Assembly (NCBI RefSeq): GCF_003704095.1
Contig: NW_020845410.1
Span: forward strand, 868,001 to 932,000
Length of the DNA: 64,000 nt
From: Pocillopora damicornis
Lineage: Eukaryota
Direction of reading: 5' to 3'
In this document: in pieces, positions 12,091-64,000 of the stretch
How positions within the stretch are numbered: position 1 is the stretch's first letter
How the letters are laid out: each line of letters starts with the position of its first letter
Program-made: the position numbers and the translations under genes
Notes under the pieces: model-generated
The model's database searches: none
Seen by the model: the letters and a program-made list of their open reading frames with translations, nothing else
Told to the model about the DNA's origin: nothing

Positions 12091-15000
12091 TCATAAATGA
12101 AACTGTTCAGGTGTGCTTGAATCACTATCTCGTGACCCTCTTGTTTGGGTATTGCTGAGACTCAAGCGGCAGACAGGGCAAGAATCATGCTGAAAAAAGG
12201 AGAAAACTTTACATTTAGTATAAAAATAAACCAACTATAGGTATTATCTTTAAGGCAAAGGTTTGAATCCTGTTGAAGTCTGAATTTTTCAAGCTCTTCT
12301 TTCTGCTATTTCTTTAATAGGCCATTTCTGAATTACTTTTGGCCTTTTTTTTCAAAACCAGGCTTGGTGCTTTGATTTGCATGAAAATGAGTTTAATTTG
12401 CATGTGAATGAAAAATTATTGTGATATGAAAGGATGAGCATCTACACTCGCTTTGAAAAAGAGCCCAAAGATAATTTGGAAATGGGCTATTGCAGTTTAT
12501 CTACGAGGATCATGCCTTCCTTTGGAGTCATCCACAGGTCAAATATTTAATCTGTTTAATTTATTTGTGATCACCTTATAGACATAACAAAGAACCAATT
12601 AAAATTTGCCTTGCTCCCAACATGGTTGTTTTTCTCCTGAAGTGAAATATAACTAATTGTTGATTCTAAATTTTAGCCAAGCACAAAGCCTTTGTCAAAC
12701 AACAGAAAAAGGAATAACATTATGCTTTTGAGTGTATCATTATATTGGAATTATTAGGATTTTTATACTTCTTATGATTTTTTTAGTGTTACATAGTAAT
12801 TCTGTATTTTTCTTAAGGGCACACTTAATTTGGAGTGTTATTCTGTCGTGGGTCCCACAGCTTTGTCCTTTGTCTCTCATTCTTGTGACTTCTTCAAATG
12901 TATTTCTTCTTCCTTGTCTTATTTTAGCATTGTGATCATGGTGAAAACCATTAAATAAATAAATAATAATAAAATTATATACCTACTAAAATATGTACTC
13001 ACCATTTTTAACCATGGTTTTATACAACCAAAATGGAATATATGACTACAGGGTAATCTCCTAACATCCTCATCTTTTGAACACTGTTCTTTGCATACAG
13101 CACAAAATTTATCAGACTCTAGACAAAAAAAATAAGAAAGAAAAGGTAAAAAATGTTAAGGTACACAATAATATTTGAGGAAGGTGATCCTATGGCACAG
13201 CTGTCTGTGAAATCAAAGAGAAGGGATGCTCTGATGGAAACACAAACCTAGAACCTAGTGAATGCTGAAGTGTATTCCTGCTTTACATACCAGAATGGAA
13301 TAAACCTGTCTAGTAACTGTTATGTTCTCTTACCTGCTGAATCTTCTGTAACTTCTACTTTTTGAAGATCTTCTATCTTTTTGGAATCTGCAGGGGGTGG
13401 TCCTGCTCCATCCATCTGGTTTAGAAGCTGTGGAATGGATATTATAATTACTGCTCTGAACTGTTCATCCATCATGAGGCAGAAATTGGCTTCTTTGTGT
13501 TAATGCTTTTTGAGATCAGTTTTCATGTTTTTGCACTCACAATGTAGAGTTTGGTTTTGGTATCTGCTGCCATTTTGGGTTTTTCCCTTTATTGACAGCT
13601 GGTTTTCAGTTTCACGAATGAAAAAAGGTAATTTTCTTTTCTTTTTTTTTTTATTGACATGTCTCTTGCATAATTTTTTTCATTTGGGATCATACACTAG
13701 CCCATAGTTTTTTTCAGTTTTGAGAGATTTTCATTTCATTTTTGTTTTGCTTTTTTTCTAGTTGCAATACTTCCTTTTACTACCATTCTAGTTATTTGGG
13801 GTCAAACCAGTGACAAAGTATTAACACTTAAAAGAACTTTTTCTTTTCACTGTTCTCTCACCTGTGTTATTATTGAATCCAATCCCTCTGCACCCCAGGC
13901 ATAATCAGCAGGGTTCCCATGAAGACGCAACAAGTTGCTATTAGATAAAAAAAAAAAAAAAAAAAGAAGAGTCAGATAAAAAGCTGGAAGATTCATTGTA
14001 CTGGAGCTTATTGTACTTTGATAGCATGCAGTAACAAGGAGTATCATTATTTCCCCCTGGATAGGACCACAGTCCCTTGTAGGGTTTCCCCTTCCCATTT
14101 ATATTCAGGGTGGAGAGTGGCACTGTGAAAGAAAGTGTCTTTGCCATGTGATGGAGAGATGTCCATGGGAAAACTTTTGATCAGAGTCCAGTAGGGTAAT
14201 ATAGCCACAAGGCAACTGCCTTGCCCACAAAAGAAACGTACCAAAAAAATGTACAGTGAAGTCTTAAGAATAAATGTCTAACATTAATGTCCCATGTGAT
14301 ATGAAAGACACAGCAGCAGACAAGTAATATCATTGATTCAGGATTATGAGTCTGGCCAATCTTTTTATGTTGTGTTAAGGGCTGATAACTCGTCAAAATA
14401 GCATCATCCATGGGTAGTGATGACAATTCTAAAATAAATTGAACTTAAAAGTTGCGTAAATTACATATCACCATCTACTAATATTGAAATGGTTAAAAGA
14501 TAATAATACTTACAATGGAAATCCCATATTTCCAGATGTTCCTGCTCCATCTTCACTTGTATTACTACCTTGAATAAGTATAAAAACAGCAGCAAATCAA
14601 AGAGACACTATGGTGAACTTGTGGATATACTGTGTAGAATATAATGATTCCAATAATCAGAATTGAGCTATACCTTCACAATCATATAATATATGAAAAG
14701 ATAAATCAAACAAGCAAAATACCTGGTGATGCTAATCCACCAAAAAGATTTTGAAGAATTCTGTAAAACAAAAGAATTACAATATGTAATAGTACTGGCA
14801 CATAGTACTTCTCAAGATGTTTTAGATCATAGCTAACAACTTACACATCAATTGCTGCAGCAGTTGTGGCATTGGCAGCATCTCCTCTTTCTCCTGGCCT
14901 TTGATTGGTACGAATACTTATTCTTGTTCGTGGTCTACGGGATCGTCTCCTTCCTTCATCTAGAGAGTCCAAATTTCCAGCTTCAGTGGACATTATGAAA

Positions 15001-18000
15001 TTAATCATAAATTAATATTACCACTATTTCCTCTGATTCATTAAAGAATAATGCTCAAATGAGAATAATTTTCTATAACCACTTTATATGCTGTAATTAA
15101 TTTTTTCTTGGTTAATAATTTTTGTAACCAGCTGTGTTGATATTTAGTTAACTTTGCTTTGTATTCGATAACATATCCAAATTTAATACTTATCATCTTT
15201 CTAAATTTCTCTTATTACCTGGCAGTTGTCCAAACAAACTTCTGTGAACCAACTGAAAATGAATTGTAATGAAATATTAATAAGACAATAATGATATAAA
15301 AAAAGAGTGTTGAGACATGTTGAGGAAAATGGGATTCTCTTTCCTGGGGCTGGCCTGTCTGTAATTACAATAACCAATCTAAGTCAAACTTTATTAAATA
15401 CATGGGTTGTAGTAAAAGACAGGCACTTCCCTTATTTGGACCTGCAACCTATAACAATACTAAAAAAAGACACATTTTTGTCTAGTCACCAGCCTTGGAC
15501 AAAGAAAAAGTTCTGAGTCCCCATGAGAAATTGAACTCAGACCTTTGAATATTGTGCTCTGATGCTCTACAACTGAGCCACAGAGATTTTAGAAGGCCAT
15601 AACTAAGTTCATGTGTGACAGGTGTCCGGCATACTGCTACAGTCTGGAATGTCCATAACATCATGTTTGTAAATAGAATAAGAAATATGTCATATATTGT
15701 GTGTCACACCACAGAGGTTTGCCAGATTTCACCAATAAATATTGAGTCGTTGAGCAGTAAAGGCAACATATATGTTCAGTCAATTTTAGTGGATGAAGTC
15801 CACATGTACTTCTCACCTCTGCAAAGTGGGTGGCTGGGTCTCTTTCAGCTTCTGCTGTACTTTCTTCTTCTCCATTGCTGTTAAGAGTTTAGCACTCAAT
15901 AAGTAACTCACTCAATCAGGCTCTTGGGAATACAGTTGGTCAAATGTTTAAACTCTTGAACAAAGGAATTTTGCAAGTTACATATCCAAGCTTAAAAATC
16001 ACTTCTGCCACCAGTGGGAGTTATACAAACAGACAGTCAAAGAAGAAATTTCCTTTATTATCAATGATTCTGAGTCTTGATATGTTAACCAACCACTGAC
16101 CATCAAACCTGTGGACTCTGAGCCTCTATATAATGACCAACAACTGACCATAGTACATCTGTGGACTCTGAGTATTAGACTTCATTAGACATTGATTTTT
16201 CATTCCCAGAGATCAAACACTATTGAACATATATGTACCAATAGATTATCAAAGTATATTATTATAATCTAAATTAATTACCAACAGTTCCTTCCTCAAG
16301 CTGCAATGAAAAATGGTATAGAAACAATGAATGTATTCAGGACAATTTAAAGGGCATGTAAACTCAAAAAACGTTCATTTTCTTTTCACATAGATGTTTA
16401 GTAAATATATCAAGTACACCAAAGGTACCATTCGTTTTTTCTCAAAAGTCCATTTTCACTTTGAAAAAGCTCTTCCAAATTCAAAACATTCGCCATTTTG
16501 AATGGCGCCATCTTTCCTGTGATGTCATGGGTGGAACTTCCAAAGTTTCGTTTAATAATCGCATGAGACACAGAGTCTTTTCCACAGCCGTTGTTTGCCG
16601 GTCTCGTCATGATTTTTTTACTCACAGTTTGCTTCAATATACTCAGTTTTTTCATAATGGTAAAGTGTTGTGTCGTCCAGTTTTGTACTGATTTAAACAA
16701 AACGGCATACAATGCAAATATTTCCAAATGATGCAAATTTGAAGCCACAATTTGCGAAACTTGTTCAAATGAAAATAGCCGATTTCGTCGAGCCGTTCAA
16801 ACATTCTGTTGTTTGTAGCAGTCATTTTTCTTCCTGGTGTTGTACCGACAATTCAGGCCCTACCAGAAGCAAATTATTCGGAACTATAAACAGCTAGCTG
16901 TAGTACTGTATTATTAAATCAATGACAGAAACAACTCAAGCAAATCGATCTCAAAATGTAACAAAACAGATGAAACGGAAAACATTTAGCTTACTCGTTT
17001 CCGGTGTGAGTCTCTGTGCCTTACTGCTGCCTGTACACGTAATAGGCCTTCTCCAGCACCCAGAAATCGAGGCAAATTGACTAAAACCTGGATACTCAGT
17101 GATACAACTTATCTGGGTTTCAGACCCTCGCTCCTCTACTTTTTGCCACAATTGCCCGATTTCCAAACGACAAACACTTTCACAAGTTGTTGGCATTGGT
17201 TGACAAGTTCCACACTCGTACCTTTGACAATTTTATATAAAACACCCTTGGAAGCTCAGCAGGTTTAAAAAATTTCTGTTGCATTCTTTTAGATTGTGCC
17301 CTTGCTTTATTGGATTTTCATATCAAATACAAGTAAATCACACAGTGAATTAGATACCAGTCTGAGTTTCCGAGGAGGTCGCATCACTGTCAACACTGTG
17401 TTCGTGCGGATTGCTTCGGTGAACCCTACGCAGCTCGTATTGTTAAGGACCTGGCCCAGACTCTCCTAAAGATTCTAGATCATCCCCATCGCCGTCATAT
17501 ACTAAGCTAAGGGCATTCGAGTCGCTATCTTCTGAAAAACATCTTCGAACTACCGCAACTTATATGAGCTACCAAACCAGTTCTACTAGGAAATATGTGT
17601 TGCACAATATTTTAGTTCCACCACTTACGTCACGATTCTCGCTATTGTTTTTACCGGCAATGGAATTTCAAGCGAAAATGCCGATTTTCTCCTAAAATAA
17701 GTCAAATTGGACAAAACGAATTTCAGATTCATTCTCTACGCCACTTTTTACATAGTATGAGAAAAACATGTATTTTTGGGTTTACATGCCCTTTAAGGTA
17801 ATCATGCACTTAATTATCATTTGTTAACTTTCCTAACTGTTACAATGTAATTGATCTGTTATCATATAGCAACCTACCTGTCACTTAACTGTTCAATAAA
17901 TTCTCCCTGGCATTGTGAACAAGTAAAATCCTACAAGAACACAAGAAATAAATTTGAAACATAACTACTGAACCAGTCAGCTCATTAGAAGGAAGCTATG

Positions 18001-19085
18001 TCATTTCTAATTGTATAATATTTATTGCCAAGTATTGATTGATAATTATTACAAGCTATGACCAGGGTTTACTGATTTTTAACAAGTTAGGACTGTAAAA
18101 TCAAATCCCCTTTTCCATCAGATCTGTATACTTGTTGAAAATTTTAAATTTTTGCATCTTTCTTATACTTTTTGCATACTTATTAAGAAGTAATGTTATC
18201 ATCTGAAGACAATCTTACACCTATGCCTTAAAACAGCTGCCATCTAAAAAAAACTTGCAGCATCTAAGCAAAAATGGGGTAAATGTAGAGTATATTCCAT
18301 TAAAATTCCTCTGAATAGTTTCTTAATCTAAATACCAGGATTATATCATAAGACAGATGCTTTTCTGGAGTGCATATCGAGACATGCAAAAGTGAAAATA
18401 ACCATCCATTACATTGAAAAAAATTAGTCTATGTAATCGATGCATAACTACGAATCTGGACTTCGGTCAAGTACTCCTCGATTACGTCGTTGCTACCAAG
18501 AAACTTTTACTCCATTGCACAACACCGTGCTTCAAATTTACGGTAAACGATTAAATTGATTCACAGAAAGTTTCTTCGACAGCTGATGCATAGTTTACAC
18601 AGCTTGATAGCCGAATTTCCATTTTTCATCGGCTCTGAACAAAAACTTTCGGTAAATCAGAAAAAACAATCGCACAACAAATACGCCTTTATGTGGTACA
18701 AACTATTATCGTGGTTTTCGTGGACATGGCGGAAGCGATTTAGTTCACAAAAGGACTCAACTTTTTCCCTTTAAAACGATGGTCACCGACTTAACCATAA
18801 CTTCAATTTAACACACTCTTATCGTAGCAGCGTTAGCTGACACTTATAATCCCAATAAAGGAAATTTGGGTTGCTAAAACTGATCACTCATTTGATAAAG
18901 TTAAAATGGTAGAATTACGGTTCCATATCGAGTAAGTACGTGATTGCAACGCTGATTCCAACGAAAAATCCACTCTTTGCAAATCCATACAAACTAACAC
19001 TTACTGGTAAATTCAGAGAAACTTCTCGATTGCACTCATGGCAATAAAATCGTTCACTTGCTCTTTCGACTGTGGCTTCGGCCAT
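12091..19085 (-). CDS. RNF126: RING-H2 E3 ubiquitin ligase, RNF115/RNF126 family (~11 exons)
   Basis: N-terminal zinc ribbon MAEATVERASERFYCHECNREVSLNLP (19085-19005) + DFTCSQCQGEFIEQL (17930-17878); [34 protein letters not shown] (~13940-13333); RING-H2 [31 protein letters not shown] ending TGA at 12093-12091. Probable co-ortholog of RNF115 and RNF126. Confidence 0.93.
12316..12491. mobile_element. MITE nested in a decayed tRNA-derived SINE
   Basis: TIR aataggccatttctgaatta / taatttggaaatgggctatt; flanks (~12255-12315, ~12492-12530) join into a sequence like the SINE body at 35860-35950. Confidence 0.7.
13975..14226 (-). mobile_element. decayed SINE-like element
   Basis: Minus strand ggcaagacacttt..cacagtgccactctccaccctgaatataaatggg..atccaggggga..tactcc..catgcta resembles a cnidarian SINE core (recognised from memory). 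Confidence 0.55.
15480..15680 (-). mobile_element. tRNA-derived SINE-like remnant
   Basis: Minus strand tggctcagttgtagagc (A box) ... gagttcaatttc (B box-like), followed by a non-tRNA tail. Confidence 0.55.
16086..16173. repeat. ~50-bp imperfect tandem duplication
   Basis: accaac(c/a)actgaccat...ctgtggactctgag occurs twice. Confidence 0.7.
16657..16850 (+). pseudogene. THAP zinc-finger remnant (transposase N-terminus)
   Basis: MVKCCVVQFCTDLNKT / frameshift / HTMQIFPNDANLKPQFAKLVQMKIADFVEPFKHSVVCSSHF: C2CH THAP pattern; conserved W lost; no DDE domain follows. Confidence 0.8.
17020..17510 (-). pseudogene. KolX / P2X7 C-terminal (ballast)-like Cys-rich remnant
   Basis: P*QYE..LGNSDW, an intron, then YECGTCQPMPTTCESVCRLEI..ISCITEYPGF / frameshift / ICLDFWVLEKAYYVYRQQ*; resembles the WCxCGxCxxMPTxxExxCCxE..CITxHPGF..CL..WVLxxA pattern. 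Confidence 0.7.
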
Positions 19086-21995
19086 CTTGAGAATTCAACA
19101 GACATTTCTTCCTACCATTTTTGGGGGGAATGACGTCATCAAAAAGAGGACGCTACAGGTAGTCTTACATCGCATTTCAACTTCTTCTTTTTCAGATTTT
19201 AGGAACCCTTCCCTAAGACTAACTTATCGAAGCACAATTTCGAGGCTAAAATATCGTTCAAAGGAAGAAAAATTTGTTACCTGAAGAGATTTCACAAACC
19301 TCCTTTTCTCTTCCGTTTATTCGTTTGAGGAAACAGCTTCTGACAGGCATTCAGTTCGAAGGGAAGATCGATATGCGGGCGCTGGAAAAGCGAGAATGGG
19401 GTCTTATAAAGGCGTCAAAAACTTAGGATCGTTTTTGTTCATACTTTTTTAGTTTGTTTTTTGCTATTTTTCAGCAAGTGCTGACGAATGGAAAGCTGCC
19501 GCGCGCTCTTTGATTTGCTTGCAATGAGTTGAACAACCCGGCCGGGGTAGATATCGCACTTGATACAATTTACGACAACCCTGATTCTATTACTATTATG
19601 TTTGACGTCTTGAGCGCTGTATAATTTCATTTATAGACTGGAAACGAGGTTAAAAGGTATTTATGTTACCCACTATTTTAAGGAAAATTTACGTGATCCA
19701 ATAACTTATCTGTGAAATGACGTCAAAAGTTCTATTTTTAGTGATACAGGCAACCGTCACTGTAATTTGATCAACGTAAAAGTGGGCCTTGTGTGAATAA
19801 AACTACGTAATAACTCCCAAATTTTTCGTTAAAATTTGCAAAACAATGGATGGATGGTCCTAAAGGTCTCACTAAGGTCTTGAAACTCCGATCACTATCA
19901 TTATAAGAAGAAAACGTTCATAGCCTCCCTAAAAAATGTGAATAAACAGCAACAAAAATTTTTTATCTTAACTTCCTTGTAATTTCTTAAGTTTTATTTA
20001 TTAATTTTTTATCCCTACGCTCTTCTTGATTTTTGAACTTTTCGTCATTGTCTGTGTTTGTTCACCTGCTAACAAGCTCCAAGTTCTGTGTGGTTGTCAA
20101 GATACAAAGATAACGCATGCGATAATGGTGTCATAGTTCTATTTGATTAAAAAAGCTGTTTCATTCATGGGAATATGCAAATTCTGTCCCCTGTTCAATA
20201 TATGTAATATCACCATCGAGGAAGAGGTCTGACAAACATGTTTATCTCTGATGCGGTCATTTTACGATTCACGGACAGTTGATTAGCGATGTTAACATAG
20301 TCTTGTAAGATTCAGTGCATTTCAACTGCGCGTAACACACAAAAAGATAACTTTGACATCGCAAATTATTCTGGAAATGGCCTAGAAAGGGTTTGATAAG
20401 GTACGTTGGTGGAAATTCTCAGATTTTATCCGTTGACTCACTGATTTCTTCATTTTCTTACCCAATGATTTGTTCGAAATTCGAGCTTCAGTTCTTGAAG
20501 AAATAATAGCGGAATTTTGTCGACTATCAAAAAGACTCTCGACCGTAAGTAATAACTGTAAATGCAGTTACTAGTAGATCAACAAGAATGAAGCCAACGA
20601 TTTCGACTCAAGCGGAAAATCTTGACTTCACTATAGAAGTAATACCATCCTCTGAGAATTATGGGGAAAATTTTTATTACACATTTTGTAAAGTAGCCAG
20701 ATCTCAAATCGAGTTTATGTTAAATCAATGAGTCATTAATTGGGATAAGGTTCGCTTCTGCGCATATTAAATTGCATTATTTCCTTAAGTGTTGGCTCTG
20801 TTTGTTTTCTGATAGCTGATTTACAAATTAATCGAGGAGAACTATTTTATGTTTGTAAATTTTAATTTTGTAGCTTTTGGAAATTAAGTGGCCATAACAT
20901 CATGATGACGGAGGTTAATCACATCCCTCGAGCGTGCTTAAACTATGCTTATCTCATTTTCGGAAAGTCAGCATTTCGAGAAACGTTGTGCATACGGGGA
21001 AAAGGTACGTCCTGCTCTGTATTTTTTTGTTAATACGGTTCAAATTTAATTACTAACCTTAAAACGACAAAGGCAAACCTTTCTTTGAAAGATGTTTCTC
21101 TGGCTAGCACTATGTCAATGTCTCACATGGTATCAAATGTCAGAAAGCTCAGCAGTTAGCGTCAGTTTTTCAAGTAAGATCCCCTTTTTCTGAACAAGGG
21201 GAACTCAGTAAAGCATGTGATATTATAGTATTTCACAGTTGCGTCATTAAAACATATTTTAAATCAGACAGTTCAGAAAGGCAAAACCATAACGTGGTTC
21301 TTCTACGGAGTAAGGCTTTAGAATTCAACGAACGCGCCTGCCGACAGAGCTCTAGGTTCCACCCGGAAAAAATGAGATGGCTATAGATGACCGACGAGCT
21401 GCCTGAGATGAGCTCATGATAAACGGATAACTACAGAAGTGAGAGCCTATCAAAATACAAGTTATTTTAAATATCTAAATGAAGTCACATCTTGTTGCGT
21501 TATCTTCTTACTAAGGAAGTATTTGATGATTGGAATTTGAAGAAAATATTCTTCTCTACAATATCTAGAGGTGTGTTTACGTTTTTCATAGGTAGTTTTT
21601 CGGTCCAGCTGGTCTTAAAATAGCTTTAATTGCTAAAGATTTCCGTTGATTATGGAATATTGTCCGATAGCGCGCGGTAAAAGCCAAGATTTGATCTCTG
21701 TTAAATGGCCGGTCCTTTTTATATGTATATGTACTAGACCTGATTTGCAATTCTGATACCCCACAAATACCGAACGAAAGACGCAGTGGCTAGCTGGAAA
21801 CAACTTACTGCAAATATTTAAAGGGGGATTTCTTCTCTTGTCGTCTTCTAAGCAAATTAAATACAGTTTCAGAATCAAGAACGAGGAAATTGCTTTGTCT
21901 ATGACCTTTTGCACCAGGGCGCGCGTGAACTCAGACTGGAATAAGGTTCGCAAATTAACTATTGGACTGATAAGGAAACACAGCCACAGCCTACA

Positions 21996-23712: not shown

Positions 23713-44454
<20,742 letters not shown>

Positions 44455-46237
44455 TTGTCAGGAATTTATCGCTAAATTATAAGATTACCTATGCTCGTAT
44501 TTATTTATCATAGTTTTGCCGTAAAACGATGTAGACAAAATTGAAGCCCAATGTTATGAATTATTCTGTAAGTTTCAGTTATGTCTGATATTCGGATGAA
44601 TAGAGAAATTTTGGAACTTACTTAATAAATATATGCTGGCCATAAGAATTTTTTTTACAATTTAATATATAACATAACCGACAAAATAGGACAAAAATAA
44701 ACAGTAAATTGATTCCTATTATTGAATTTATTGTTTCATTCATTTAAAAGTCATGATTTGTCTGATTGGATTGCTCCTGTGTGGACGTTATTTCTGGAAA
44801 GCATGGAAGTTATGTAAATATTTGCGTAGTGCTAACTTATGATAAACATGCTAAGGGAATTTTTGGCGGATCTTCAAATATTTGATGGCATCGTAATGTC
44901 GTAAACTTCCAGTATTGACATTGGTTAGGTGGAATGTATTTAAATTGTAACTAGAATGTAGTTGAGATTTAGAGAATTATCCTAACATTTCCTCTTATAT
45001 GTGAAGTATCCTTCATATTAAGATAGTTCTGCAGTACTTAAAGCTGATTGTATAAATTTGGAAAAAGTCTGCACAAAGTTACGAAAATGACTGTCGATAG
45101 TAATCTGGGATAGCGTTGGTTTTGTTTCATTACGGTCTCTGATTAGTCGAGAAATTTCACTAGACCCTCTCAGTCAATAATACGTTAAAATAATGGCCAA
45201 TCAGGAGTTGGTTACTTTTGCTTTTTGATGGGTGGAGGTTGTGGTAGGGTAGGTGTGAAATCACGCGAGGGAATGTTTCCTCTCTCGCAGATGCTCGCAC
45301 AAGTTGCGCTTTGGTTTCACACCCCAAAAGTGTTCTCCATCGTCAAGTTCTGATTTACAGGAAATTTTGTTAACGAACTGCAGGTTGGCAATTTACTGTG
45401 TAAGAAACGTCGCCCATGAAAATTATATAACTAAATTCAGGAAAAATGAATCTTGAAAGTGGTTTTCATTGTCACTCACGCAACCACACCTTTTAGACGT
45501 ATGGCGTGTTTGCACCGCTGCGATCAAATATTCGACTGTACCGACTAAAATTCGTCCACGATTTCTGCGTTCGAATTTTCTTAACAGCCTGTGTACAGCA
45601 ACCCCCTACCCTCTAAAAGATAATCGGAGTTTTAATCTACTTTTGGTAGGTAGGGGGGCGTTTTTATACAGACTAATTTTGAGTGGCTAGGTGTATAAAT
45701 TTACGAACGGTTAGCAAAGTACCGCATGAGCAGAATATCCAAACGCAAGAACCTTGAACCAGAAGGAAATTAATATAGTGTTGTTGTAACTCAGCTTAAA
45801 GAATTTCCTGGTGCAATTATAGAAGTACATCAGTTTAAAGACATTAAGGGAGATATATATCGTAGTTAGTACCGTAAGGCTTAGACACAGGATAAAATAA
45901 TGATTGTCCAATGAAGTGGACATTTACTATCTAGAAAAATTATTATGCTCCAACTTTGTGTTTTAAAATTCATTAATTTTCGATATAAGTAACTTCTGTG
46001 AGTTAATTATTTCGGGTTGGATACGTTTTCCAGTTGTACAGAAGGGCGTTATTTTTGATAGTGGAGAATTGAATAAAAGAAAGTTGACGTAGATGTTTTC
46101 TTTTAATTAGACTTTGGGTTTGTTAGCAACTCCAACTGAGAGTATTTTATGCCACTTTCAGTGGCATAAAATACCTGCTAGTGCCCATGCACCCACCCCT
46201 TAATAGCACCCCACCCATTTTCTCTAGTACCCATGCA

Positions 46238-50008: not shown

Positions 50009-51380
50009 ATGGCGGACGTTAGTTCACCAAATCCAAGTAGTGAACCCGAAAAACCTACCATAGAATCGTCTGATTCGTCTGCTGCAGAGTTGCAAAAGAG
50101 AATTTCAGATTCTTTTGATATATTTGATCACGAATCTAACAAAACTGTCGACGTTAGGTAAGAAAGTCACAATAATATTTCATATCTAACTGGCACCTTC
50201 ATTTGATAAGTTTTTATGTTTCTCAATATCTAACTGTGATCTTGTACATTTTAAGAGAGGTTGGGACGATTGTAAGATCGCTGAAGTGTTGTCCTACTGA
50301 GGGAGAGCTTCATGACATTTTAGCCGAGGTATGTGAAACACTGATTTTCTTTATCAGGGGTAAGTTTCAAATGAGAGTGATTAGAAATATGCCTAATTTG
50401 CCTTTTTCAATGATGTTGAGGTTCTATGCTTATTTGTTATAGGTAGAGGAGGAAGAACCAACAGGATACATAAGATTTGAAAAATTTGAACCTGTTATGT
50501 TAAAAACTCTTCTGGAGAGAAGGTAACTTAAGGAATGTTCTAAAATTGATGGAGTGTCATGTCTATTTTAACTCTTGAAATTAACCTGTTCCTTTTCCCA
50601 CCAGGGAAAAAAGAAGATGCTCCTTTTTGGCTTAGTCCACACCCAAGTTAATTCTCAATTTAATTTTTGATAGATACAAACCAGCACCTGAGGACCAAAT
50701 TATGAAAGCATTTGAAGTTTTAGATCAAGAAAACAAAGGCTACCTTACTACAGAAGAACTTACAAAATACATGACTGAAGAAGGTACATGGAGCTTTAAA
50801 ATGGAGTTAGTAGTTGGAACATCATGTTTTCACCTTCCTGTTTTGTTTCCCAAGGATATCTCACATGTTTGTTATGTTTATGCCTGTTATCTCACAGATA
50901 ACAAGAGTGTAGATAGGATTCTCCCATTGGGGGTGGGTAAGGGGGGGTTGAGCTGTACACTTGAGTCTTACTGTCATTGGGAAATCATTAGGTTGTACAT
51001 AACCTCGTTTGTGCCTTTTTGGTATTATGGGTACACGTGGTCAGATGCATCTTTTGACCCCCTCCCCCCCCCCAACCACACTCTGCATAGCTCAATTGAC
51101 AGTAACACCCAACTAGTAACTGGAGAGGAAGGATTCAAATCTTGTCAATCAAAGCCTGTGTTTTTTCAAATGTCTTAATGTAGTCCTGTGAGGATCATTT
51201 CTGTACTTGTACATTAAAGAGGTGTTCAATTGATGACCTGTATCATCTTTTATGTTCACAACAGGTGAACCTTTCACACAAGAGGAAATGGAGGAAATGC
51301 TTTCTGCTGCTGTTGACCCAGACAAAGGGATTATATTTTATAAGGATTTTGTTTCAATGATGGTAGTAGATGACTTGTAA
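50009..51380 (+). CDS. EFCAB2: dynein regulatory complex protein 8, EF-hand (5 exons)
   Basis: ISDSFDIFDHESNKTVDVR-EVGTIVRSLKCCPTEGELHDILAE-VEEEEPTGYIRFEKF..ERR-YKPAPEDQIMKAFEVLDQENKGYLTTEELTKYMTEEG-EPFTQEEMEEMLSAAVDPDKGIIFYKDF; TAA at 51378-51380. Confidence 0.93.
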
Positions 51381-54549: not shown

Positions 54550-57368
54550 TCAAAGGCCATGAAATTGTTGTTGAGGATTGCTCTGAATCCTTTGTTCCCC
54601 AAGAGCTGGTAATTGTTGAATTCCACTTCTTTTTCGTCCTTGTACACCACTAAGATTTGGGAAAGACTGTAAGAAAAACAAAAAACAGAAAAACTCTATT
54701 GTTTTAAAACAAACAAAAAATATCCCCAATATAAGAGTCCCATCTGATGAGAAGAGAAATCATGGTTTGCATGTGTCTGAAGGCTTGATAACCAAATGCT
54801 GTTTGGAAAATTAACTTGTACTCCAGACTTACTTGGGTGGTGGAAATCAAGCCTGGCATGAACGTTGCTTTCAAGTTCTCTCCTTTGATTCTCAAAGCAA
54901 GCTTACTTACAGAAACCTCAAGGTGTCTGAGGTATCTTATTTATATCTGAATACAATAAACTTTTCCTGAAGCCTCAGGCCTTCAGTGATGGAATAAGAA
55001 ATGGGAAACACAGAATCAAGGCAGCTGTAGTGTAGTGGGAAAGGCCAATGTAAAGGAAGGAATTTTTTATTAAAAGAGGATGTCAACCCTCAAGACATTT
55101 GAAATTACCTCCCTTGACCCTTTATTTCCCAGAAGTGATAAACATGCAACTTCTCCCTGTAATATCTGTAAATTATCCATTAAACAGGTAATGAGAATTC
55201 TGGATCAATATCAGTATCTGGGCAACTGCCCACCTACCCCTCCCCTAACCCAACATTAACCCTAACTTGTTATCAATTGACTGTCGTTGAGTTAGGGAAG
55301 GGGTAGGTGGGCAGTTGCCCAGATACTGATATTGATCCAGAATTCTCAACCTCATCTTTGGTAAAATTTGCCATCTTGATCCAACACCAAATTCTTGTAA
55401 CTCATTAACAAGGAAATGTCTAGCAGCTAGTAAGGAGAATTAACAATGGGAGTTGAAGTTGAAGGGTTTATTCTAGACAACTTATAGCCGTCAGTTGAGT
55501 CTTAAAAGTGAGGTCACCTCTATCCAACAGTCACCCCTCTAATATGGACACTTAGCTTTGTCCTTTCTGTCTAATGTCTATGTCAGAAATAGGTCACTAA
55601 CCAAAAAAATCAATGTAACTCAATTACTTATCATTGGTTGCCATATCAACTCTACTGTTACTACTTACATTGTCGTGAACAAGATTAGAGGATGTTTTCC
55701 TTCCTTTTGCATCAACAATGACAGGTTTATGATCAGTAAACATTCGATTGAAGCTCATTTCCCTGTTGCTCAGCTCCAGACGATAACGCTGCACTTCTCG
55801 TCTGAGACGTTCAAGCTCATCATCTCTCTAAAGTGGATACAGACCAAGCCTAAGTACAAATTTGATAACAATTAAAATATTCCCCCCCCTCCCCCCTTCT
55901 CCTCAACACTTGAGTCAGATAAGTAATAGATAGCCTAAATCAGTCCATACTCCAAATTAATGAGATAAATTTTTCGCATTTGATTTTAAAATTTCCTTCC
56001 CTCTTTGGTTTCAGATACATGTAATTAATTCTCAAATTCCAAGGCTTTGGGCTTAAGCTAAGAACAAAAGAAATGAATTCATCAAAACATGTGAGCACAA
56101 AAAGAAATATTTTGGAAGGGAAAGTAGTAATTAGGAAGACCAAACATATTTTTTTATCCATTGTTTTAGTGTGAACAAAGACTGAAAATCTTGGAAATCT
56201 AGCTAAAATTTTCTAAAGTGGTGTTGTAATAACACTGTAATAACACTGCAATATCAACCCTTTCACTCTCGAAATCTCATCAGTAATTCTCCTTACTGTC
56301 TGCCCTACAATTCTTGTGGCATTGGTTTAGAATCTGATTTTGGATCAATTCATGATCTCATTTATATTTTTCTTTTTTCTCATCACTTGTCTGCTTGATA
56401 TTGTAATGATATTGTAATGAGAAATTCTGTTTTGGTCACTCATGGAAATCAAAGGGTTTAACAAAGTTCTAAACTTAACATACATCAATTGGCGATGGTC
56501 GGGGTACTTCAGGACTTCCTTTAGTCACTGATCTTGGGGATCTTTTTGCTTCCTTTCTTTTGTTCCTCTCGTCAACATATTGTTGAATTCTAAGTTCTAA
56601 CTGATGTTTTTCATCTTCAAGCTCCTTTACTTGTTGATTCAACTGTTTATTTTTCCATTCAAGTTTTTCAGCCCTCATTTGGTCTTCTCGTTGCTGTTTT
56701 GTGTATTCTGCAATTTTCTGACCAAGTCTCTCAATTTCATCCTGCCAGTCTCCTTGCAAGCCATCAACACTTGCTTCAAGCCTCTGCTTTTTTTCCAATA
56801 CATCTTTTAATTCATCCTCCAATGTTTTTACTTTTGATTGAAGATTATCAACTTGATTTTGGCTCTTCTTTATCTTGTCACTTTTAACCTTGAGTTTTTC
56901 TTTCAAGTTATTGTTCTCTTTCTTTACATTTTCCAGTTCAACTGACAAATGATCATACCCAGAGTTTACATTATCCATAAGGCTTTCTTTCAATTCTACA
57001 ATTTGTTTTTCAGCAATCATTAAAAGTTGATCTTTATGCTCTAACTGAGTATTTAATTCTGCCTCCCTATTTTGAAGATCTTGGATCTGCTCTTTGTCTT
57101 TCTCAATCTCTGTATTTTTCAAGTCCAACAAAACACGGTATTTTTCTAGTTCATCAAGTTGTCCCTCCAACCACGAAATTTTTCCTTTTGCTTCTTCAAG
57201 AATACCTCTTATCTCATGTTCATATGCAGTTTTCAATGATTCTACTTCAATCTCGCGCTCGTGGTTTCTCGTAAACAGCAAGTGAATGACCATAGTGAGT
57301 TCAGCTATCTTCCGTGATAGTTTTCCCTTCAAGTCGAGTTCACGTTCTTTATCTCTGTGGTGAGCCAT
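54550..57368 (-). CDS. short FAM184-like coiled-coil protein (~386 aa, 3 exons)
   Basis: Exons 57368-56484, 55827-55669, 54666-54550. N-terminal LSRKIAELTMVIHLLFTRNHEREIEVESLKTAYEHEI and C-terminal RYRLELSNREMSFNRMF resemble the two conserved FAM184 blocks. Confidence 0.8.
55118..55466. mobile_element. diverged TTAA-family MITE hosting a palindromic insertion
   Basis: ccctttatttccc...gttgaaggg; body aligns to 1876-2585. Confidence 0.7.
55201..55339. mobile_element. near-perfect palindromic MITE with 6-bp TSD
   Basis: ~49-bp inverted arms tggatcaatatcagtatctgggcaactgcccacctacccct...; GAATTC at 55195-55200 and 55340-55345; older copy at 62885-63009. Confidence 0.9.
56258..56456. mobile_element. 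TTAA-family MITE copy
   Basis: Aligns with 32950-33153; further copies ~59128-59338, ~40440-40615, ~28385-28588. Confidence 0.75.
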
Positions 57369-58610
57369 TTTGGATTATTTGTAGACAGCCACACAGATGA
57401 GAACTGGTTTCTCGAAACAGATGATATTTGTACGATATGACATCCAATTATTTCAATCGTGCAAATTAAGCTTAGGCCGAAAACATCGAATTCATCACCT
57501 GAGTTCAAATTGGCGAAGGTTATGTTTGATGAAGAAGAAATCCATACCTTTTTTTCCACGTCGAAGGCGAACTGTAACGTGAAATGCAACTCATACTGCG
57601 ATCACAGCGACAGCCGTTTGATTAACTGCCCTTTAGCTCTCCGTTTTAAATTGGGCAAACTCGACCATGTTTAGTACGTCAACAGATTCAACTTTCTAAC
57701 GTCGCTCCAAAAATCTTTCTGCCAATTTTATTGCGCGTGCTGTTGATCTCTTGTCAGTGATGTGTTGAAAAAGATCGACTGGACTGTTTGAATTTTCACA
57801 GCTTGTGTCCTTTGAAAAACAGACCAAAGTGTTGATTAATAAATTCAAGAGAGAGCAATGGACCAACACATATGTTGCTAAGACGTAGTGGGAGGAACGT
57901 TTTGAGCTTCATTTGCATGACAATTGCCCAAAGTTGGAATGCTACATAGGTGCAAATTAGGTCCAGTTACCTATTCGTTCACATAAATCCGCTGTCCCGG
58001 CAACAAAAGTTAGCTGCCCGCTCTGTTTACACAAGAGTTGATGAGTTTTCAAAGCAGAAATAATGACTCTGAGTGTCCGCCATGTTGGACGCTCGGCGTC
58101 GTAAGCCTGGCCCTAGTTGTTTTGGTAAACAGATGAAGGGGAGGGGACAAGATGAAAAGGAACCAAGACATGGAAAGGTTGTTGTCTCAAAATGAAAGAG
58201 AAAAGGTATAACGGTACGACATGTTATGTAACGACTCCGTATAAATATCAAAACTTTAACAGAACCAGAAGAAACTATGAAAAATTACGTGAAAGCTGAA
58301 AAACGAGTCAAAAAATATTGTAAAGTGGTACCTGAGTACTTGTGAAAGTATTTAATTGAATTCACTCCTTTCTGTTACTTTGTGATTTGAAAAAATAATC
58401 GGAAGAAATCAGGGGTAAGGGGGACGTTTCGCCTAACCGCGCGGAGATTGGGAATAGTAATAGAGGTCTCATACAGTTACTTACACAACGTAGAAACCAA
58501 AAATTTTTGAAAAATGGCGGAATTTTGTGAATTCATCGCTGTGTCGTTTTCAAGGTATTGGAGCCACAGATAGCGAGTGAATATCTTACTGGTAATTTAA
58601 TCTGGTGTAA

Positions 58611-61600
58611 ATGGGGCTGAGTGACGGAATTTTGGTAGTTGTTTCGGTTCTTGAAGGTAAGTTTGTCAGAAAATCCTTCAATTTTCGTCTAACTTCAGGG
58701 TTGAATTGACCATATTTTAAATTTGTTAAATGTTTGTTATGCGAAAATTTTGTGATACATTCAGGGCGAAGATTTCCTAAACGACCACGACACAAGATCA
58801 TTGTCGAAACAAAGTTTGATGGAGAAACTCTGACGACAGATCCCATTGATCATGTGGAAACCCCAGAGTTCACAACTGAACTTGCTTGGGAATTGAACAA
58901 AAAGTCTTTGCATCAGCATCGCTTGCAGAGAACACCAATCAAAATCCAGGTAAAATATGTGCAACACAAGTGAATTGTATTTTGACAGGCTTACAGATTA
59001 TAAAATATTTCGTTATTGCATCGTTTTTGTTTGTTCGTTTGTTTGTTAATGATAGGGTGGAGTGTAGGGAGTTGATCTTGCACTGTTATAATGTGAACCA
59101 AAATGAGATGTTGTAACTTAACCGCTGTTAACCCTTATGTTTCCAAGATCTTGTTTATAATTCTTCCTTCCCGCTGCTACACATTCCCTTATAAATAAGT
59201 TACAATAATTTGGTGTTAAATTAAGATAGCTAACTCTACCTGATAAGTTTGAATATTCTCAGAGCCTGTTTGCTGGATAATGTATGGATATTATAGAGAG
59301 AAGTTAAATGTTGATCATTTCTGAGAGTTGAAGGGTAACGAGAAAGAAAAGGAAAGATTTCCATATAACCACATACTATTCTTAAGCAAAGCTGTTTTTC
59401 TACAGGTAATCTGTTGTTTCACCTTTAGTTTCTTCTATCCAAGTATTGTGGCATAATGAAGTATGGGGTTACGCAGAAATCTTTCCAGACAAATGTGCAT
59501 CTCTTTTACATTAGTTACAATGTCGAGCTACTTCATTGCCAAATTTACTCAACTTAATTTGTCATCTTTTCCTTTACTGATTTCAATATGTTCCTAAATT
59601 TGCTGGTTATCTATATTTTGGACAGTGTTATGCTCTGGATACTCTGTCATCTCAGAAGGAAGCTGTTGGATATGTGATCCTAGATTTGCGGACAGCACAA
59701 CAAAAACCAGTGGCAAGTATTCAGTGTCATTCAATTAAAGACCTTTAGAAATAACAACATTTAGAGATTAAAAAATGCATGCAAAGTAATAATTCAAGAG
59801 ATTGAAATGCTATCAGAGCATGGTGAAATAAAAATTACAATTTTTATTTTAGAGAGCACAATGGTATTCCCTCCTGAGTACAAAGTACCAAAGAATGAAA
59901 CCAGAGTTGAAGTTGATGTTGTCATTAGAAGATGACACTCAGTCTAAACAGACTGAACAACAGTCACAACAAGAAGATGAGAGTAAGTTAAAAAAAAAAC
60001 AAATGAGAAATGATTTTTTTGACTAGAGATAAGGTTGAACTGTTTTAAGTAAATCTTTTCCCAAGGAACAAAACCTCAGTTTTACAAACAACATTTTTCA
60101 GCCTAATTCAATAGTCTCATTGTCATCCTTTGATGTTGGTATCTAACTTCTAAATATCAGTAATTTGGAACGATTGTTAAGAAGGGTAGAAGTGGAATTA
60201 TTGCTTCACCATTTCATTGTTTTAGTTACTATTAAGAATTAATGGGATGTCACAATCAATGACCGTAAATCATTTATTAACTAACCACAATTTTGTTTTT
60301 TTTAAAGCCTGTCTACATGTACCAGTAAATACCAATAAAATTTAAATTTCATTGAGCATGAAATATACCTAAATGCGTTCAAGGTGTTGCTTAGTTATCA
60401 TCTCATGCAAACTGTTTTATTATTGACATTTAACTTTCTAAATTTGACAAATATTTCAAACTAATTAACAAATTTTGCTAATGGCTGGACATGTTTTTTC
60501 TCTATGCCTTCCAAAGGGCAACACCCAAGACCCTCTCCACCAAGAAAACCAGAATCTGATGGGATACAGTGTCTGCTTAATGAAGATCAAGGGTATTATG
60601 AAATTGGACCACAACATGAAGATGACAAGATTTTTATTTTGTCCGTTACAATTGGACTTGCCTCTAATTTAGCTAAGGTAGATTTGCTTAATAATTAATG
60701 TAAATCTCTGACATTTTGATCATAAGTCATAAATGATGCCCTTAATTCTACAAATTTCATGTAATTATGACTTACAATAGAGGAAACTAATTATTTGATG
60801 AGTCACCAATCTCCCTTTATGCGCCATTGCATAGCTGGTCACCAGCCCTTCTCATTGCAGAGAACAGGTTGTCCAAATAGTAAATGTAAAAATTTGCTCC
60901 CTAGACATATTAAGAGATGAATTATCTACAACAGTGCCAGTCTGACATTAGAGTTCCTACCCAGGAATCCACTTCTGCTATGAACAATAAAACAAGACAT
61001 TCCCTTTGAAATAATTGATTTACACTTTTTATCATTGATTGGGTTTTTTTTTTTAATTTATTACTTTTTTCCCTTTAGTTGGTACCATCTAGCTTTGCTT
61101 TGCCAGATCCAAACCTTGGTGGTGGATTTTATTTTTATTACTCATTACTGAGCAATGATGTGACAAATGAAGTCTTTCATGATCTTCTTCAACCAAACTT
61201 TCCTGCTGAGCGAGCTTCAGTGAGAATAAGAAGTAACTTGGAACTTCTCAGAACATTTTTCACCCAACATTCAGGGCTGGAGGTAGATCTTATGCATACT
61301 AATTCATATAACAATTAATTTTTAAATCCTGAGATCTTTCATCAACAAAATCCACATTGATGATTAAACAATTATTTGTTATCCATTTGATAGTTTTATA
61401 GTTTTTCTTGATGAAAACCTTGCCACAATGTAATGGACTAAAAAGTTGTCAATGTGATTTTGGCTCCTCATTCCTGACTGAGAGGAGATTGTTTTTACAA
61501 TCTTACAGATGAATGTATTGCTAACAGGACTAGAAACACAGAGATGTTAAAATGACCAAAAAAACCTTAATGAATGTAGTGCTAACAAGACTGGAGTCAC

Positions 61601-64000
61601 AGAGATGTTATAATGACAAAAAAACACCTTAATTTTTTTTCCAGTACAAATGTAAGAATATTTTCTTACAGGTCTATTTGTGTTGTGGGGACCAGTCCTT
61701 AGGCAAAGCTGTAGTCTCTTTTCAAGGCCTTCTCAATGAGCAGCAAAACTTAGCATCACCAACTGTAATTGAAGGGCTATTTCCATTAATTGCACCTGGT
61801 CGTAGTCGCCAATCTTCAGGAGCAGTAGATGACTCTGAGCCAGCTGTTGGTGTGTCTGTGTCTTTAAGACAAGAGCAGCAGGAGACAATGGGAAATGTCA
61901 CAAGTTCCCCCTCGCCAATTGTTGCTGCAGGAGGAATGGGAAGACAGGTATACTTTGTCTGTGGCTCATGATAATGATAATATTGATAATGTTGATGATA
62001 ATGATAATAATGATGACGATGATAACACTACAGATGTACAAAGATATCCTCCAAATTCTTTTTAGCAGTCAATGCTTGTTCATTATTTTGTGCCCAACCA
62101 TGTTTTTAAATGACATTTTCAGAGGGTACCTGAAGTAGACAGCCTGCCATATGGAAGCAAATCTCCAGCTAAACAGCTTTCAAGCTCCCCTTTTAGAGGA
62201 AAGCAGAAAGAGCCTGGTAAAGGGTCAGAGACAGAGATTACTGGAGAGCACCTCAAGGGTACACCACCTCGACCACAATCCAGCACTCCACACAGTGGCC
62301 CAGAAAAACTAGGGTTAGAAGGTGGGGTCACTTTGGGAGCTCAAAAGGTACATATGTGGTTGTTTTGTTGTTAAATCAGAGCAGAGCAGTGTTAAATCTA
62401 AACGACTCCAAACAAATTTCATTTCTTTCAGAACTCTCCTTCAAAGAAATCAAAGACAGCCCAGGCTTCTCAACCACAAATATCAGCTCCAGGCCCCAGC
62501 AGCACTGTTCCTTTACTTGGAACGAGGCTACCAATTGATCCAGGAGCACACCACTTCTGTTTTTCTATTGACCTGCGCAGTATTTCCAATCTTGATGTAA
62601 CATCTCCTGTTAACTGTTTCCTCAGGTTTGTCTGTCAAAAATTGACCAAGTTTGTACTAAGTAGACCATAACCAATGGAATGAATAAGATGTTTATTCTC
62701 CCTCCAGGTACACATATCCTTTCTTTGGCAGTGCTGCACCTGTTATCACTAGTCCTCCTGTACAAGTCCAACGCAACATGGAAGTTCTTCTACCAAAATC
62801 ATTCTGTGCCTTTGACTTTGCATCATCGCCAATACTTCTTCAACAAACTCTCACAAGGTTAGCAAAGATGTCAGCTCTTTGAATTAGACCAATGTCAGTG
62901 CACCTACCCCTCTCCTAACCTCATGAGAGTCAACTGATAACAAGTTAGGGTTAATGTTAAGTTAGGGAAGAGGTAAGTATGTAGTTGTTGAGATACTGAC
63001 ATTGATCCATGAAATTTAAGTTTGCAATCAATTGTCAATAAAACAAAGCTAAAGTAACCAATGGTGACCAATCAGTGAAGAGATTGGCATCACAGGGAGC
63101 CAATGACTGAGCTGAAGCGTGGGAAGACCCTATTGATCAAATGGGGATTGGTTTTTCTTTGGCATCTGATTTTTTGAGAAGACAGACGTGTGTTCCTGAC
63201 AGATCACTTTGTGTAGTTAATCAAAAGCAGTTCAGTCCTAGATTACTTGGATTACTCTCAATTTGTTTTTGTTTTACAATAGAGTTCCCCTTGTGATTGA
63301 GGTGTGGCATAAAGACAGCATGGCTGGAAATCTTCTGATTGGAGTCTCCAATATGTTACTGGCCTCTGTCCTAAGTGCCAATAAAGTTCAAGTCTTGTCG
63401 CAGGTGAGAGTCAAGTTTAAATTATTTGATAGAAAATCGGTTTGTGCTTCGTCAAGGCATGATACACTAGCACAATTTTCAAAGCACAGCTCAAGTGTTT
63501 TCAATGAAAAAAAAAAAAAAAAAAAAGAAAGGGGGGGCAGCGATCTGATACATTTTTTCTCACCTTGACAGCCATTGCTAAATTTTTGCATTTGTCATAT
63601 TTATATTTCGTGTGGTAAGGGTAAAGAAGTGACTGGCTACAGGCAAATTTATAACGAGAGGGTGATAATCTTTACTACAGAAAAGTAAGTGCAACAATTT
63701 TGTATAGACTCAATAGATAGTTACAGAGTTTGTACAGACCAAAGCTTTCTTTATACATCATTTAATTCAGTTGACGTTGCAGTGGGCGAGAGGCTGGGAG
63801 GGGTCTGGCTCGAATAATTTCTTTTTCATGCCAGAACCCTCGTAGACCTTTCGCACGCTCACAACCATTATAAAAATCAGAATAGTGTTTTGTTTGGTGT
63901 GTTTGTTTCTTTTTATGTTTCTTTTTTAATCTTCATTTAACGATGATGACAATAAACCTCTTTCTCAGGCCTGCTCGGAGAATCGGTGAGCTTCATGTGG
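58611..64000 (+). CDS. CEP120: centrosomal protein CEP120 (5' part; runs off the window)
   Basis: [82 protein letters not shown]; C2[37 protein letters not shown]; C2[43 protein letters not shown]. Confidence 0.95.
61509..61632. repeat. ~61-bp tandem duplication, 2 copies
   Basis: atgaatgta(t/g)tgctaaca..cacagagatgtta..atgac..aaaa..ccttaa occurs twice. Confidence 0.85.
62885..63009. mobile_element. decayed copy of the 55201-55339 palindromic MITE
   Basis: cacctacccct..cctaacc / gttaggg..gatactgacattgatcca. Confidence 0.75.

What the first reader, a model, noticed from the sequence alone, without database searches (positions are those of the whole stretch)
16347..17796. Kolobok-type transposon relic carrying both THAP and P2X7-ballast-like (KolX) genes, convergent, inside RNF126
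Seen: TTAA TSD, AGGG...CCCT termini, a frameshifted THAP ORF on + (16657-16850) and a two-exon Cys-rich remnant on - (17510-17020); the catalytic region between them is deleted. Knowledge: a TTAA target with purine termini and a THAP-transposase plus an accessory ORF defines Kolobok. The accessory remnant resembles the cytoplasmic ballast domain of vertebrate P2X7 (recalled motif). Inference: this copy shows the ballast-like domain as transposon cargo in a cnidarian and gives a probe for the autonomous parent.
Basis: partly seen in the sequence, partly recalled or inferred. Interest (0 to 1): 0.7.

Follow-up and report, generated by a model that had tools for sequence, protein, structure and literature searches.

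The report
Dead coral Kolobok transposon in intron
This is a shortened, gene-dead copy of a known type of cut-and-paste jumping gene (Kolobok, Kol0 group) sitting in an intron of a coral RNF126-like gene, likely moved there by a full-length relative's enzyme; the likeness of its second gene to the tail of the P2X7 receptor is real but already published, so it is ordinary.

Summary
Observation confirmed. A 1,442-bp element (16351-17792) with AG...CT ends and inverted repeats sits between two TTAA copies in intron 2 of an RNF126/RNF115-like gene of a Pocillopora coral. Sister copies are TTAA-flanked at 41 of 47 ends. RNA contigs from 3 of 8 runs laid show the empty site with one TTAA. It keeps a broken THAP exon (+) and two broken KolX exons (-). 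The latter match a Stylophora protein that hits Pfam P2RX7_C and P2X7 structures. It arose by two deletions: the DDE core was lost in a 2.4-kb form, then about 965 bp more. Both genes carry lesions shared by all readable copies, so the family spread as a non-autonomous element and KolX here is dead baggage. Using it as a probe found about 4.3-kb full-layout relatives with the same ends in metagenome contigs; none is shown intact. The host intron splices normally and no splice into KolX was listed. KolX as the P2X7 ballast relative, and Kol0 in cnidarians, are already published (Kojima and Bao 2022). The scan noted this kind before on other genomes. New member of a known kind; low interest.

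The parts
16347..16350 (.). Left TTAA target-site copy
   Evidence: empty site with a single TTAA in RNA contigs of X17, X19, X20 (joint 16347 to 17794)
16351..16370 (+). Left terminal inverted repeat (starts AG; 20-nt core, imperfect extension to 16383)
16657..16856 (+). THAP exon remnant of the transposase: own 2-nt deletion near 16703; family-wide deletion of about 62 nt near 16828 with frameshift
   Evidence: Pfam THAP; alignment of copies and comparison with L065; reads of other samples
16885..16892 (.). Junction of the second deletion (about 965 bp: linker exon, transposase C-terminal exon, KolX exon 3); short A-rich microhomology
   Evidence: BLAST break at element position 542-544; junction sequences; 3 of 19 matches span it
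16888..16994 (-). KolX intron 2, donor kept, acceptor lost with the deletion
   Evidence: sequence against the longer copy L021; splice sites inferred from GT/AG and protein match
16995..17221 (-). KolX exon 2 remnant (Cys-rich, ballast-like): first Cys changed to Tyr, 1-nt deletion near 17083, stop near 17022; 4 of 7 ballast-position cysteines left
17222..17357 (-). KolX intron 1 (GT...AG)
   Evidence: sequence; gap in tblastn against P0001 and P0017; inferred
17358..17575 (-). KolX exon 1 remnant (acidic N-terminus): start codon likely lost, 2-nt deletion near 17540, family-wide TAA stop near 17443, family-wide 1-nt frameshift near its end
17773..17792 (-). Right terminal inverted repeat (ends CT)
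17793..17796 (.). Right TTAA target-site copy
15878..17877 (-). Host intron 2 of the RNF126/RNF115-like gene; the element begins about 80 nt downstream of the donor
   Evidence: RNA joint 15877 to 17878 listed in X15, X17, X19
12094..19085 (-). Host gene, coding span: zinc ribbon plus RING-H2 E3 ligase, RNF126/RNF115-like
   Evidence: Pfam, 100% RING-exon match to Pocillopora proteins P0166-P0168, best PDB hit RNF126 RING E 1.5e-18 plus RNF126 N-terminal domain E 4.4e-5

Best explanation
This is a non-autonomous, internally deleted copy of a Kol0-type Kolobok DNA transposon with both genes broken, lying at a TTAA site in intron 2 of a Pocillopora RNF126-like gene, and likely inserted there by a transposase supplied by a full-length relative. 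Shown: ends, TTAA duplication, empty site, THAP and KolX remnants, two nested deletions, shared lesions, normal host splicing. Inferred history: (1) a parent of about 4.3 kb carried a spliced THAP-DDE transposase gene and a convergent three-exon KolX gene; (2) a derivative lost the DDE core and gained stops and frameshifts in both genes, giving the 2.4-kb form; (3) one lineage lost about 965 bp more, giving the 1.45-kb form; (4) both forms were copied because the terminal repeats stayed intact, the transposase (and KolX, if it is needed at all) coming in trans; (5) this copy now decays neutrally and is spliced out with the intron.
For: Family: 64 matches (lower bound), 35 exact ends against 0 control, TTAA at 41 of 47 ends. 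Empty site with one TTAA in 3 of 4 RNA runs. Longer copy L021 holds the missing 965 bp with the transposase C-terminal motif and KolX exon 3; a sister's exon 3 scores over the P2RX7_C cut-off (26.8 bits). Shared lesions: KolX TAA in 9 of 10 rows covering it (the tenth has a deletion there); THAP deletion in 10 of 10 readable rows. The junction is shared by 3 assembly copies, which group with a fourth at 100/99 support. Metagenome contigs L065, L066, L075, L076 carry the transposase core motifs in order; L065, L066 and L076 also carry the same 23-nt end. The motifs resemble rows Kolobok_2_DR_1p and Kolobok_1_XT1p of Data S5 by eye. Decayed core fragments joined to the same left end exist in the own genome (C1100, C406). 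Intron 2 is spliced whole in X15, which carries the insertion.
Against: No intact parent was shown. The full-layout relatives are only about 67-77% identical in DNA, so they are a sister subfamily, and none of 5 passed a stop-free splice test (one junction failed in all five, possibly because my splice rule was too tight). The window's own KolX frame fails Pfam and PDB on its own; the ballast link runs through homologues. Placement in Kolobok0 was not tested with a tree. Six of 47 ends lack TTAA, and some ends (L022/L023, the two in L028) look like segmental duplicates and are not independent.
Confidence: 0.93

Rival explanations
1. The empty allele is not ancestral: the element inserted early and was later cut out without a footprint, restoring one TTAA. 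The element's identity is unchanged; only the history of this site differs.
For: The copy has 38 private substitutions in 1,450 bases, 24 outside CpG, while the empty-site contigs differ from the window flanks by only 5-7 letters in about 590-610, so the element looks older than the split of the haplotypes.
Against: Contig depth suggests roughly 10-15 copies of the junction per genome (rough) but only 3 are in the assembly, so the true source copy is probably unsampled and private changes are overcounted. Filled haplotypes are closer to the window (0 of 543 in X15; 2-3 letters in about 650-695 in X1, X4, X6) than empty ones, as expected if the empty ones belong to a sister lineage that never had it.
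Confidence: 0.12
2. The KolX exons, on the same strand as the host gene and with splice sites left, are being spliced into RNF126, an early stage of the kind of capture that built P2X7.
For: Same strand; KolX intron 1 keeps GT and AG; capture of KolX by a host gene has a published precedent.
Against: None of the 8 joints listed for 4 RNA runs links a host exon to the element, and only X15 of these carries the insertion. Exon 2 is frameshifted, has a stop, keeps 4 of 7 cysteines, and exon 3 is gone. Contigs drop rare variants, so low-level splicing is not excluded.
Confidence: 0.02
3. It is a piggyBac derivative, since piggyBac also duplicates TTAA and a few piggyBac families encode a KolX-like protein.
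For: TTAA target; KolX-like proteins in a few piggyBacs.
Against: Ends are 5'-AG and CT-3', the Kolobok rule; the second gene of relatives keeps all 7 cysteines, which the piggyBac ones mostly lack; the core of relatives hits PF20700 and resembles Kolobok rows.
Confidence: 0.01

Closest known systems
Kol0 (Kolobok0) lineage of Kolobok DNA transposons, type family Kolobok-1_XT (Kojima and Bao 2022, PMC9587614; seen: abstract, parts 1-2 of 6 of the text, section 10, keyword passages, and supplement hits in files 2 and 3)
   Same: TTAA duplication, 5'-RR...YY-3' ends, DDE transposase plus KolX in the full-layout relatives; Kol0 is reported from cnidarians.
   Different: This copy lacks the catalytic core and both genes are broken. 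The Pocillopora family was not found in print ('Kolobok' + 'Pocillopora': 0 papers); Repbase and Dfam could not be searched.
Kolobok_2_DR_1p (row of Data S5, same paper)
   Same: Motif order and wording around the first D, second D, DxxH and final E are close to those of L065, L075, L076 and own-genome C640 (by eye).
   Different: No alignment or tree was run with it; identity not measured.
P2X7 cytoplasmic ballast domain, Pfam P2RX7_C PF20478; Nanor-like proteins (Rump et al. 2020, PMC7016195; seen: keyword passages only)
   Same: The family's KolX protein is a sequence relative (P0001: Pfam E 2.3e-13, PDB E 3.3e-4).
   Different: Here it is a stand-alone transposon gene, not fused to a channel, and this copy cannot encode it.
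Stylophora pistillata 'P2X purinoceptor 7-like' protein (P0001)
   Same: 78% identical to an open sister exon 2; same extent as KolX.
   Different: Annotated as a host receptor-like gene; it has no channel domain and is likely a KolX gene of a related element (its DNA context was not seen).

Membership tests
Kolobok superfamily | TTAA 4-bp target-site duplication | tested here: met
   Both ends; 41 of 47 family ends; single TTAA at the empty site
Kolobok superfamily | 5'-RR and YY-3' termini with inverted repeats | tested here: met
   AG...CT; rule from PMC9587614
Kolobok superfamily | DDD/E transposase with C/DxxH motif (in the parent family; this copy is a deletion derivative) | tested here: met
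   Absent from this copy and from the 2.4-kb form. Present as ordered motifs in L066, L075, L076 (L065 has Q for H) and in part in own-genome C1100 and C640; PF20700 E 3e-6 for L075
Kolobok Kol0 lineage | Second gene KolX related to the P2X7 ballast | tested here: met
Kolobok Kol0 lineage | Seven conserved cysteines of the ballast fold | tested here: inconclusive
   7 of 7 in P0017 and L065, 6 of 7 in P0001, 4 of 7 left in the window copy (read). Which seven are the zinc ligands is recalled, not from a call
Kolobok Kol0 lineage | N-terminal THAP domain and KolX on the opposite strand (recalled as typical; not stated in the passages read) | tested here: met
   THAP E 6.5e-15 in L065, sisters over cut-off; convergent layout in window, L021, L065
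Kolobok Kol0 lineage | Transposase groups with Kolobok0 in a tree | not tested
   Only a by-eye comparison with Data S5 rows
KolobokP | Long terminal direct repeats of about 450 or 660 bp | tested here: not met
   No long direct repeat in 15000-19500
piggyBac | Termini unlike Kolobok's RR...YY (pyrimidine-first ends, recalled) | tested here: not met
   Ends are AG...CT
RNF126/RNF115 E3 ligases (host gene) | N-terminal zinc ribbon plus C-terminal RING-H2 | tested here: met
   PF14369 and PF13639; RNF126 is the best PDB hit, and its N-terminal domain also matches. RNF126 versus RNF115 was not resolved

The most novel reading that the evidence does not exclude
The empty allele in other Pocillopora samples is a footprint-free excision of this element, which would mean Kol0 Kolobok cuts out precisely at TTAA as piggyBac does, and that a working transposase of this family acted recently in wild corals.
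Probability: 0.12. Interest if true: 0.45.

Novelty: new member of a known kind. Interest (0 to 1): 0.15.

Why it matters
Little on its own. It adds a coral Kol0 family with a traceable deletion series (about 4.3 kb, 2.4 kb, 1.45 kb) and shows that a working KolX gene is not needed on the moving copy, since KolX was already broken when the family multiplied. It suggests that coral genes annotated 'P2X purinoceptor 7-like' without a channel domain can be transposon genes. The filled-versus-empty site could serve as a simple presence/absence marker among Pocillopora lineages. If the empty allele proved to be a clean excision, it would bear on how Kolobok elements leave a site.

Tried and rejected
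Direct Pfam and PDB searches with the window's own KolX frame: no P2X7 hit (three septin rows at E 0.5-0.6 rejected as noise). Open sister exons alone were weak (P2RX7_C E 0.6 and 0.026). Genome search with the zinc-ribbon family PF14369 found nothing because the domain is split by an intron; single host exons found nothing useful in the PDB. Search for long THAP homologues returned 11 proteins of 169-217 aa and no full transposase. PF20700 search of the genome gave 59 matches; only 10 were fetched and the fragments closest to this family came instead. No intact parent in the assembly: best protein matches carry stops or are short; absence is not shown, as the assembly is fragmented and only top candidates are scored. 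Stop-free splice test of 5 metagenome contigs: none passed. No empty site in 4 DNA runs: flank contigs run into the element ends. Supplement searches for KolX motifs found no Kol0 KolX sequences as text; Figure S6 gave only its title, so I could not compare with the published KolX alignment. Paper searches: 1 paper each; 11 listings, none on coral Kolobok by title; 160 papers, 15 listed, no Kol0 excision study seen in the listing; 0. No structure prediction or complex job was run; sequence evidence was enough.

Full report
Observation. The window reads TTAA at 16347-16350, then AGGG..., and ...CCCT then TTAA at 17793-17796. The two ends form the top inverted repeat of the region: 37 nt, 81% complementary. 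A search of the own genome gave 64 matches, a lower bound since 40 of 57 candidates were scored. The 20-nt end pattern occurs exactly 35 times against 0 for the reversed control. Among fetched own-genome loci, 41 of 47 distinct ends have TTAA directly outside; the rest are CTAA (2), TTGG, GTAA, TTAG and GATA. Some ends look like segmental duplicates, so not all are independent.

THAP remnant. The ATG is at 16657. The frame after a 2-nt deletion near 16703 hits Pfam THAP at E 7.8e-4, below the cut-off. Three sister copies without that deletion pass it (27.6-29.6 bits). All 10 readable copies also share a deletion of about 62 nt relative to L065, which shifts the last THAP motif out of frame.

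KolX remnant. An open exon 2 from a sister copy found a 204-aa Stylophora protein labelled 'P2X purinoceptor 7-like' (P0001, 78% identical). P0001 hits P2RX7_C at E 2.3e-13 and P2X7 residues 471-594 in 8tr5 and 6u9v at E 3-4e-4. It matches the window at E 9e-32. To avoid leaning on one close relative I built a profile from 83 of 89 full-length homologues, keeping those under 50% identical to P0001. It scores the remnant at E 2.3e-13 and 2.9e-6 in two frames, and the next best place in the window is E 0.71. Exon 3 of a sister copy passes the P2RX7_C cut-off directly. The link is real. The copy keeps 4 of the 7 ballast-position cysteines. A TAA stop in exon 1 is present in 9 of 10 rows, the tenth having a deletion over it, and a 1-nt frameshift near the end of exon 1 is inferred in all 10 by comparison with P0001.

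Deletion series. Matches break at element position 542-544. A 2.43-kb copy (C1362, L021) fills the gap with about 965 bp holding a linker exon, the transposase C-terminal motif and KolX exon 3, but no catalytic core. The window's junction is shared by 3 of 19 matches. These three and C901 form a clade at 100/99 in a tree of 10 copies over 411 columns; 7 of the 17 aligned copies were left out of the tree because they do not cover that stretch. The window copy differs from its clade mates by 4.5-5.6% and from the others by 7-12%. The contig spanning the junction is about 10, 14 and 12 times deeper than flank contigs in X1, X4 and X9; the tool warns that depth is no copy number, so this is a rough hint that the short form was itself amplified.

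Parent. A scan of metagenome contigs with P0001 gave 15 loci. L065, L066, L075 and L076 hold a multi-exon transposase gene facing KolX, with motifs in Kolobok order; L065, L066 and L076 also reach an end with the same 23-nt sequence. Pfam gives THAP, PF20700 and P2RX7_C for their frames. The motifs resemble the rows Kolobok_2_DR_1p and Kolobok_1_XT1p of Data S5 by eye. No single contig has both ends; about 4.3 kb is estimated from L065. DNA identity to this family is about 67-77%, so these are a sister subfamily. None of five passed a stop-free splice test; one junction failed in all five, which may be my rule, and L065 has two further breaks. In the own genome, C1100 and C406 join the same left end to decayed core sequence, and C640 holds the core's end. 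No intact parent is shown.

Host. The RING exon is 100% identical to proteins labelled Pocillopora meandrina and P. damicornis, whose best PDB match is RNF126. RNA joints define minus-strand introns, and the element lies in intron 2, 15878-17877. X15 carries the insertion (contig 15852-16394, no differences) and splices the whole intron. None of the 8 listed joints links a host exon to the element. Four DNA runs have flank contigs running into the element ends and list no empty joint; in X9 only the right side reaches it. RNA runs X17, X19 and X20, three studies by code, have an intronic contig joining 16347 to 17794, the empty site with one TTAA. So 5 of 8 runs look filled and 3 of 8 empty. 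Whether this is variation within a species or between sister species cannot be told.

Mechanism. The ends are intact and both genes were broken before the copies diverged. The simplest reading is a non-autonomous cut-and-paste element moved in trans by a Kol0 transposase (inferred from established knowledge of DNA transposons). KolX on the moving copy is not needed. This copy now decays: 38 private substitutions, 14 at CpG, against 0-4 CpG changes in the 16 other copies, which would fit methylation in a gene body (inference). The private changes exceed the roughly 1% flank difference to the empty alleles, which leaves open that the empty allele is a clean excision. An unsampled source copy explains this as well, so I give excision 0.12.

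What is known. Kojima and Bao 2022 (PMC9587614) state the TTAA and RR...YY rules, that Kol0 encodes KolX, that KolX resembles the P2X7 ballast, and that Kol0 occurs in cnidarians. Rump et al. 2020 (PMC7016195) list ballast-like proteins in corals and anemones. Figure S6 of the first paper could not be read as text, and the store of supplements gave no answer, so only the four mirror files were searched. The scan's own notes hold eight similar findings on other genomes and none under 'Kolobok' in this genome. Verdict: correct reading, new member of a known kind, interest 0.15.

Noticed in passing
window 16351-17792: 14 of 38 private substitutions are CpG transitions, against 0-4 in the 16 other copies; may reflect methylation of the host gene body.
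   Followed up: partly
L069:1197-3246, L071:3978-5862, L078, L079 (metagenome contigs): A 1.9-2.0-kb TTAA-flanked derivative of the sister subfamily that also keeps THAP and KolX and lacks the core, likely an independent deletion with the same outcome.
   Followed up: partly
L022:6830-7479 and L023:8041-8693 (G000 C3082): A foreign insert of about 650 bp near the start of KolX exon 2 in two copies, with a 116-aa open frame of unknown kind.
   Followed up: no
G000 C2862:108148-109937 (L051): A second, distant Kolobok-like pair: KolX-like frame on + facing a PF20700 transposase frame on -; no TTAA-flanked inverted ends found in the fetched stretch.
   Followed up: partly
G000 C1527:17305-17562 (L045): A KolX-like match inside a 171-aa open frame with no intron between the two conserved halves; could be another element or a host-kept gene.
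   Followed up: no
window 14959 and 14980 (minus strand): Two alternative splice acceptors in the RNF126-like gene, 21 nt apart; the shorter form matches P0168 and the longer P0167.
   Followed up: no
window 16066-16172: Short imperfect direct repeats (38 nt and 14 nt, about 50 apart) in the host intron outside the element.
   Followed up: no
window about 1-9800, 25000-44500, 50600-51200, 56500-57400, 61600-63600: Exons of neighbouring host genes seen in the ORF list. They look like CHAF1A, an Unc13-type protein, an EF-hand protein, a coiled-coil protein and CEP120; these names are recalled and untested.
   Followed up: no
L078:4494-6720: Frames resembling another, unrelated DNA transposase next to a Kolobok derivative; family not tested.
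   Followed up: no
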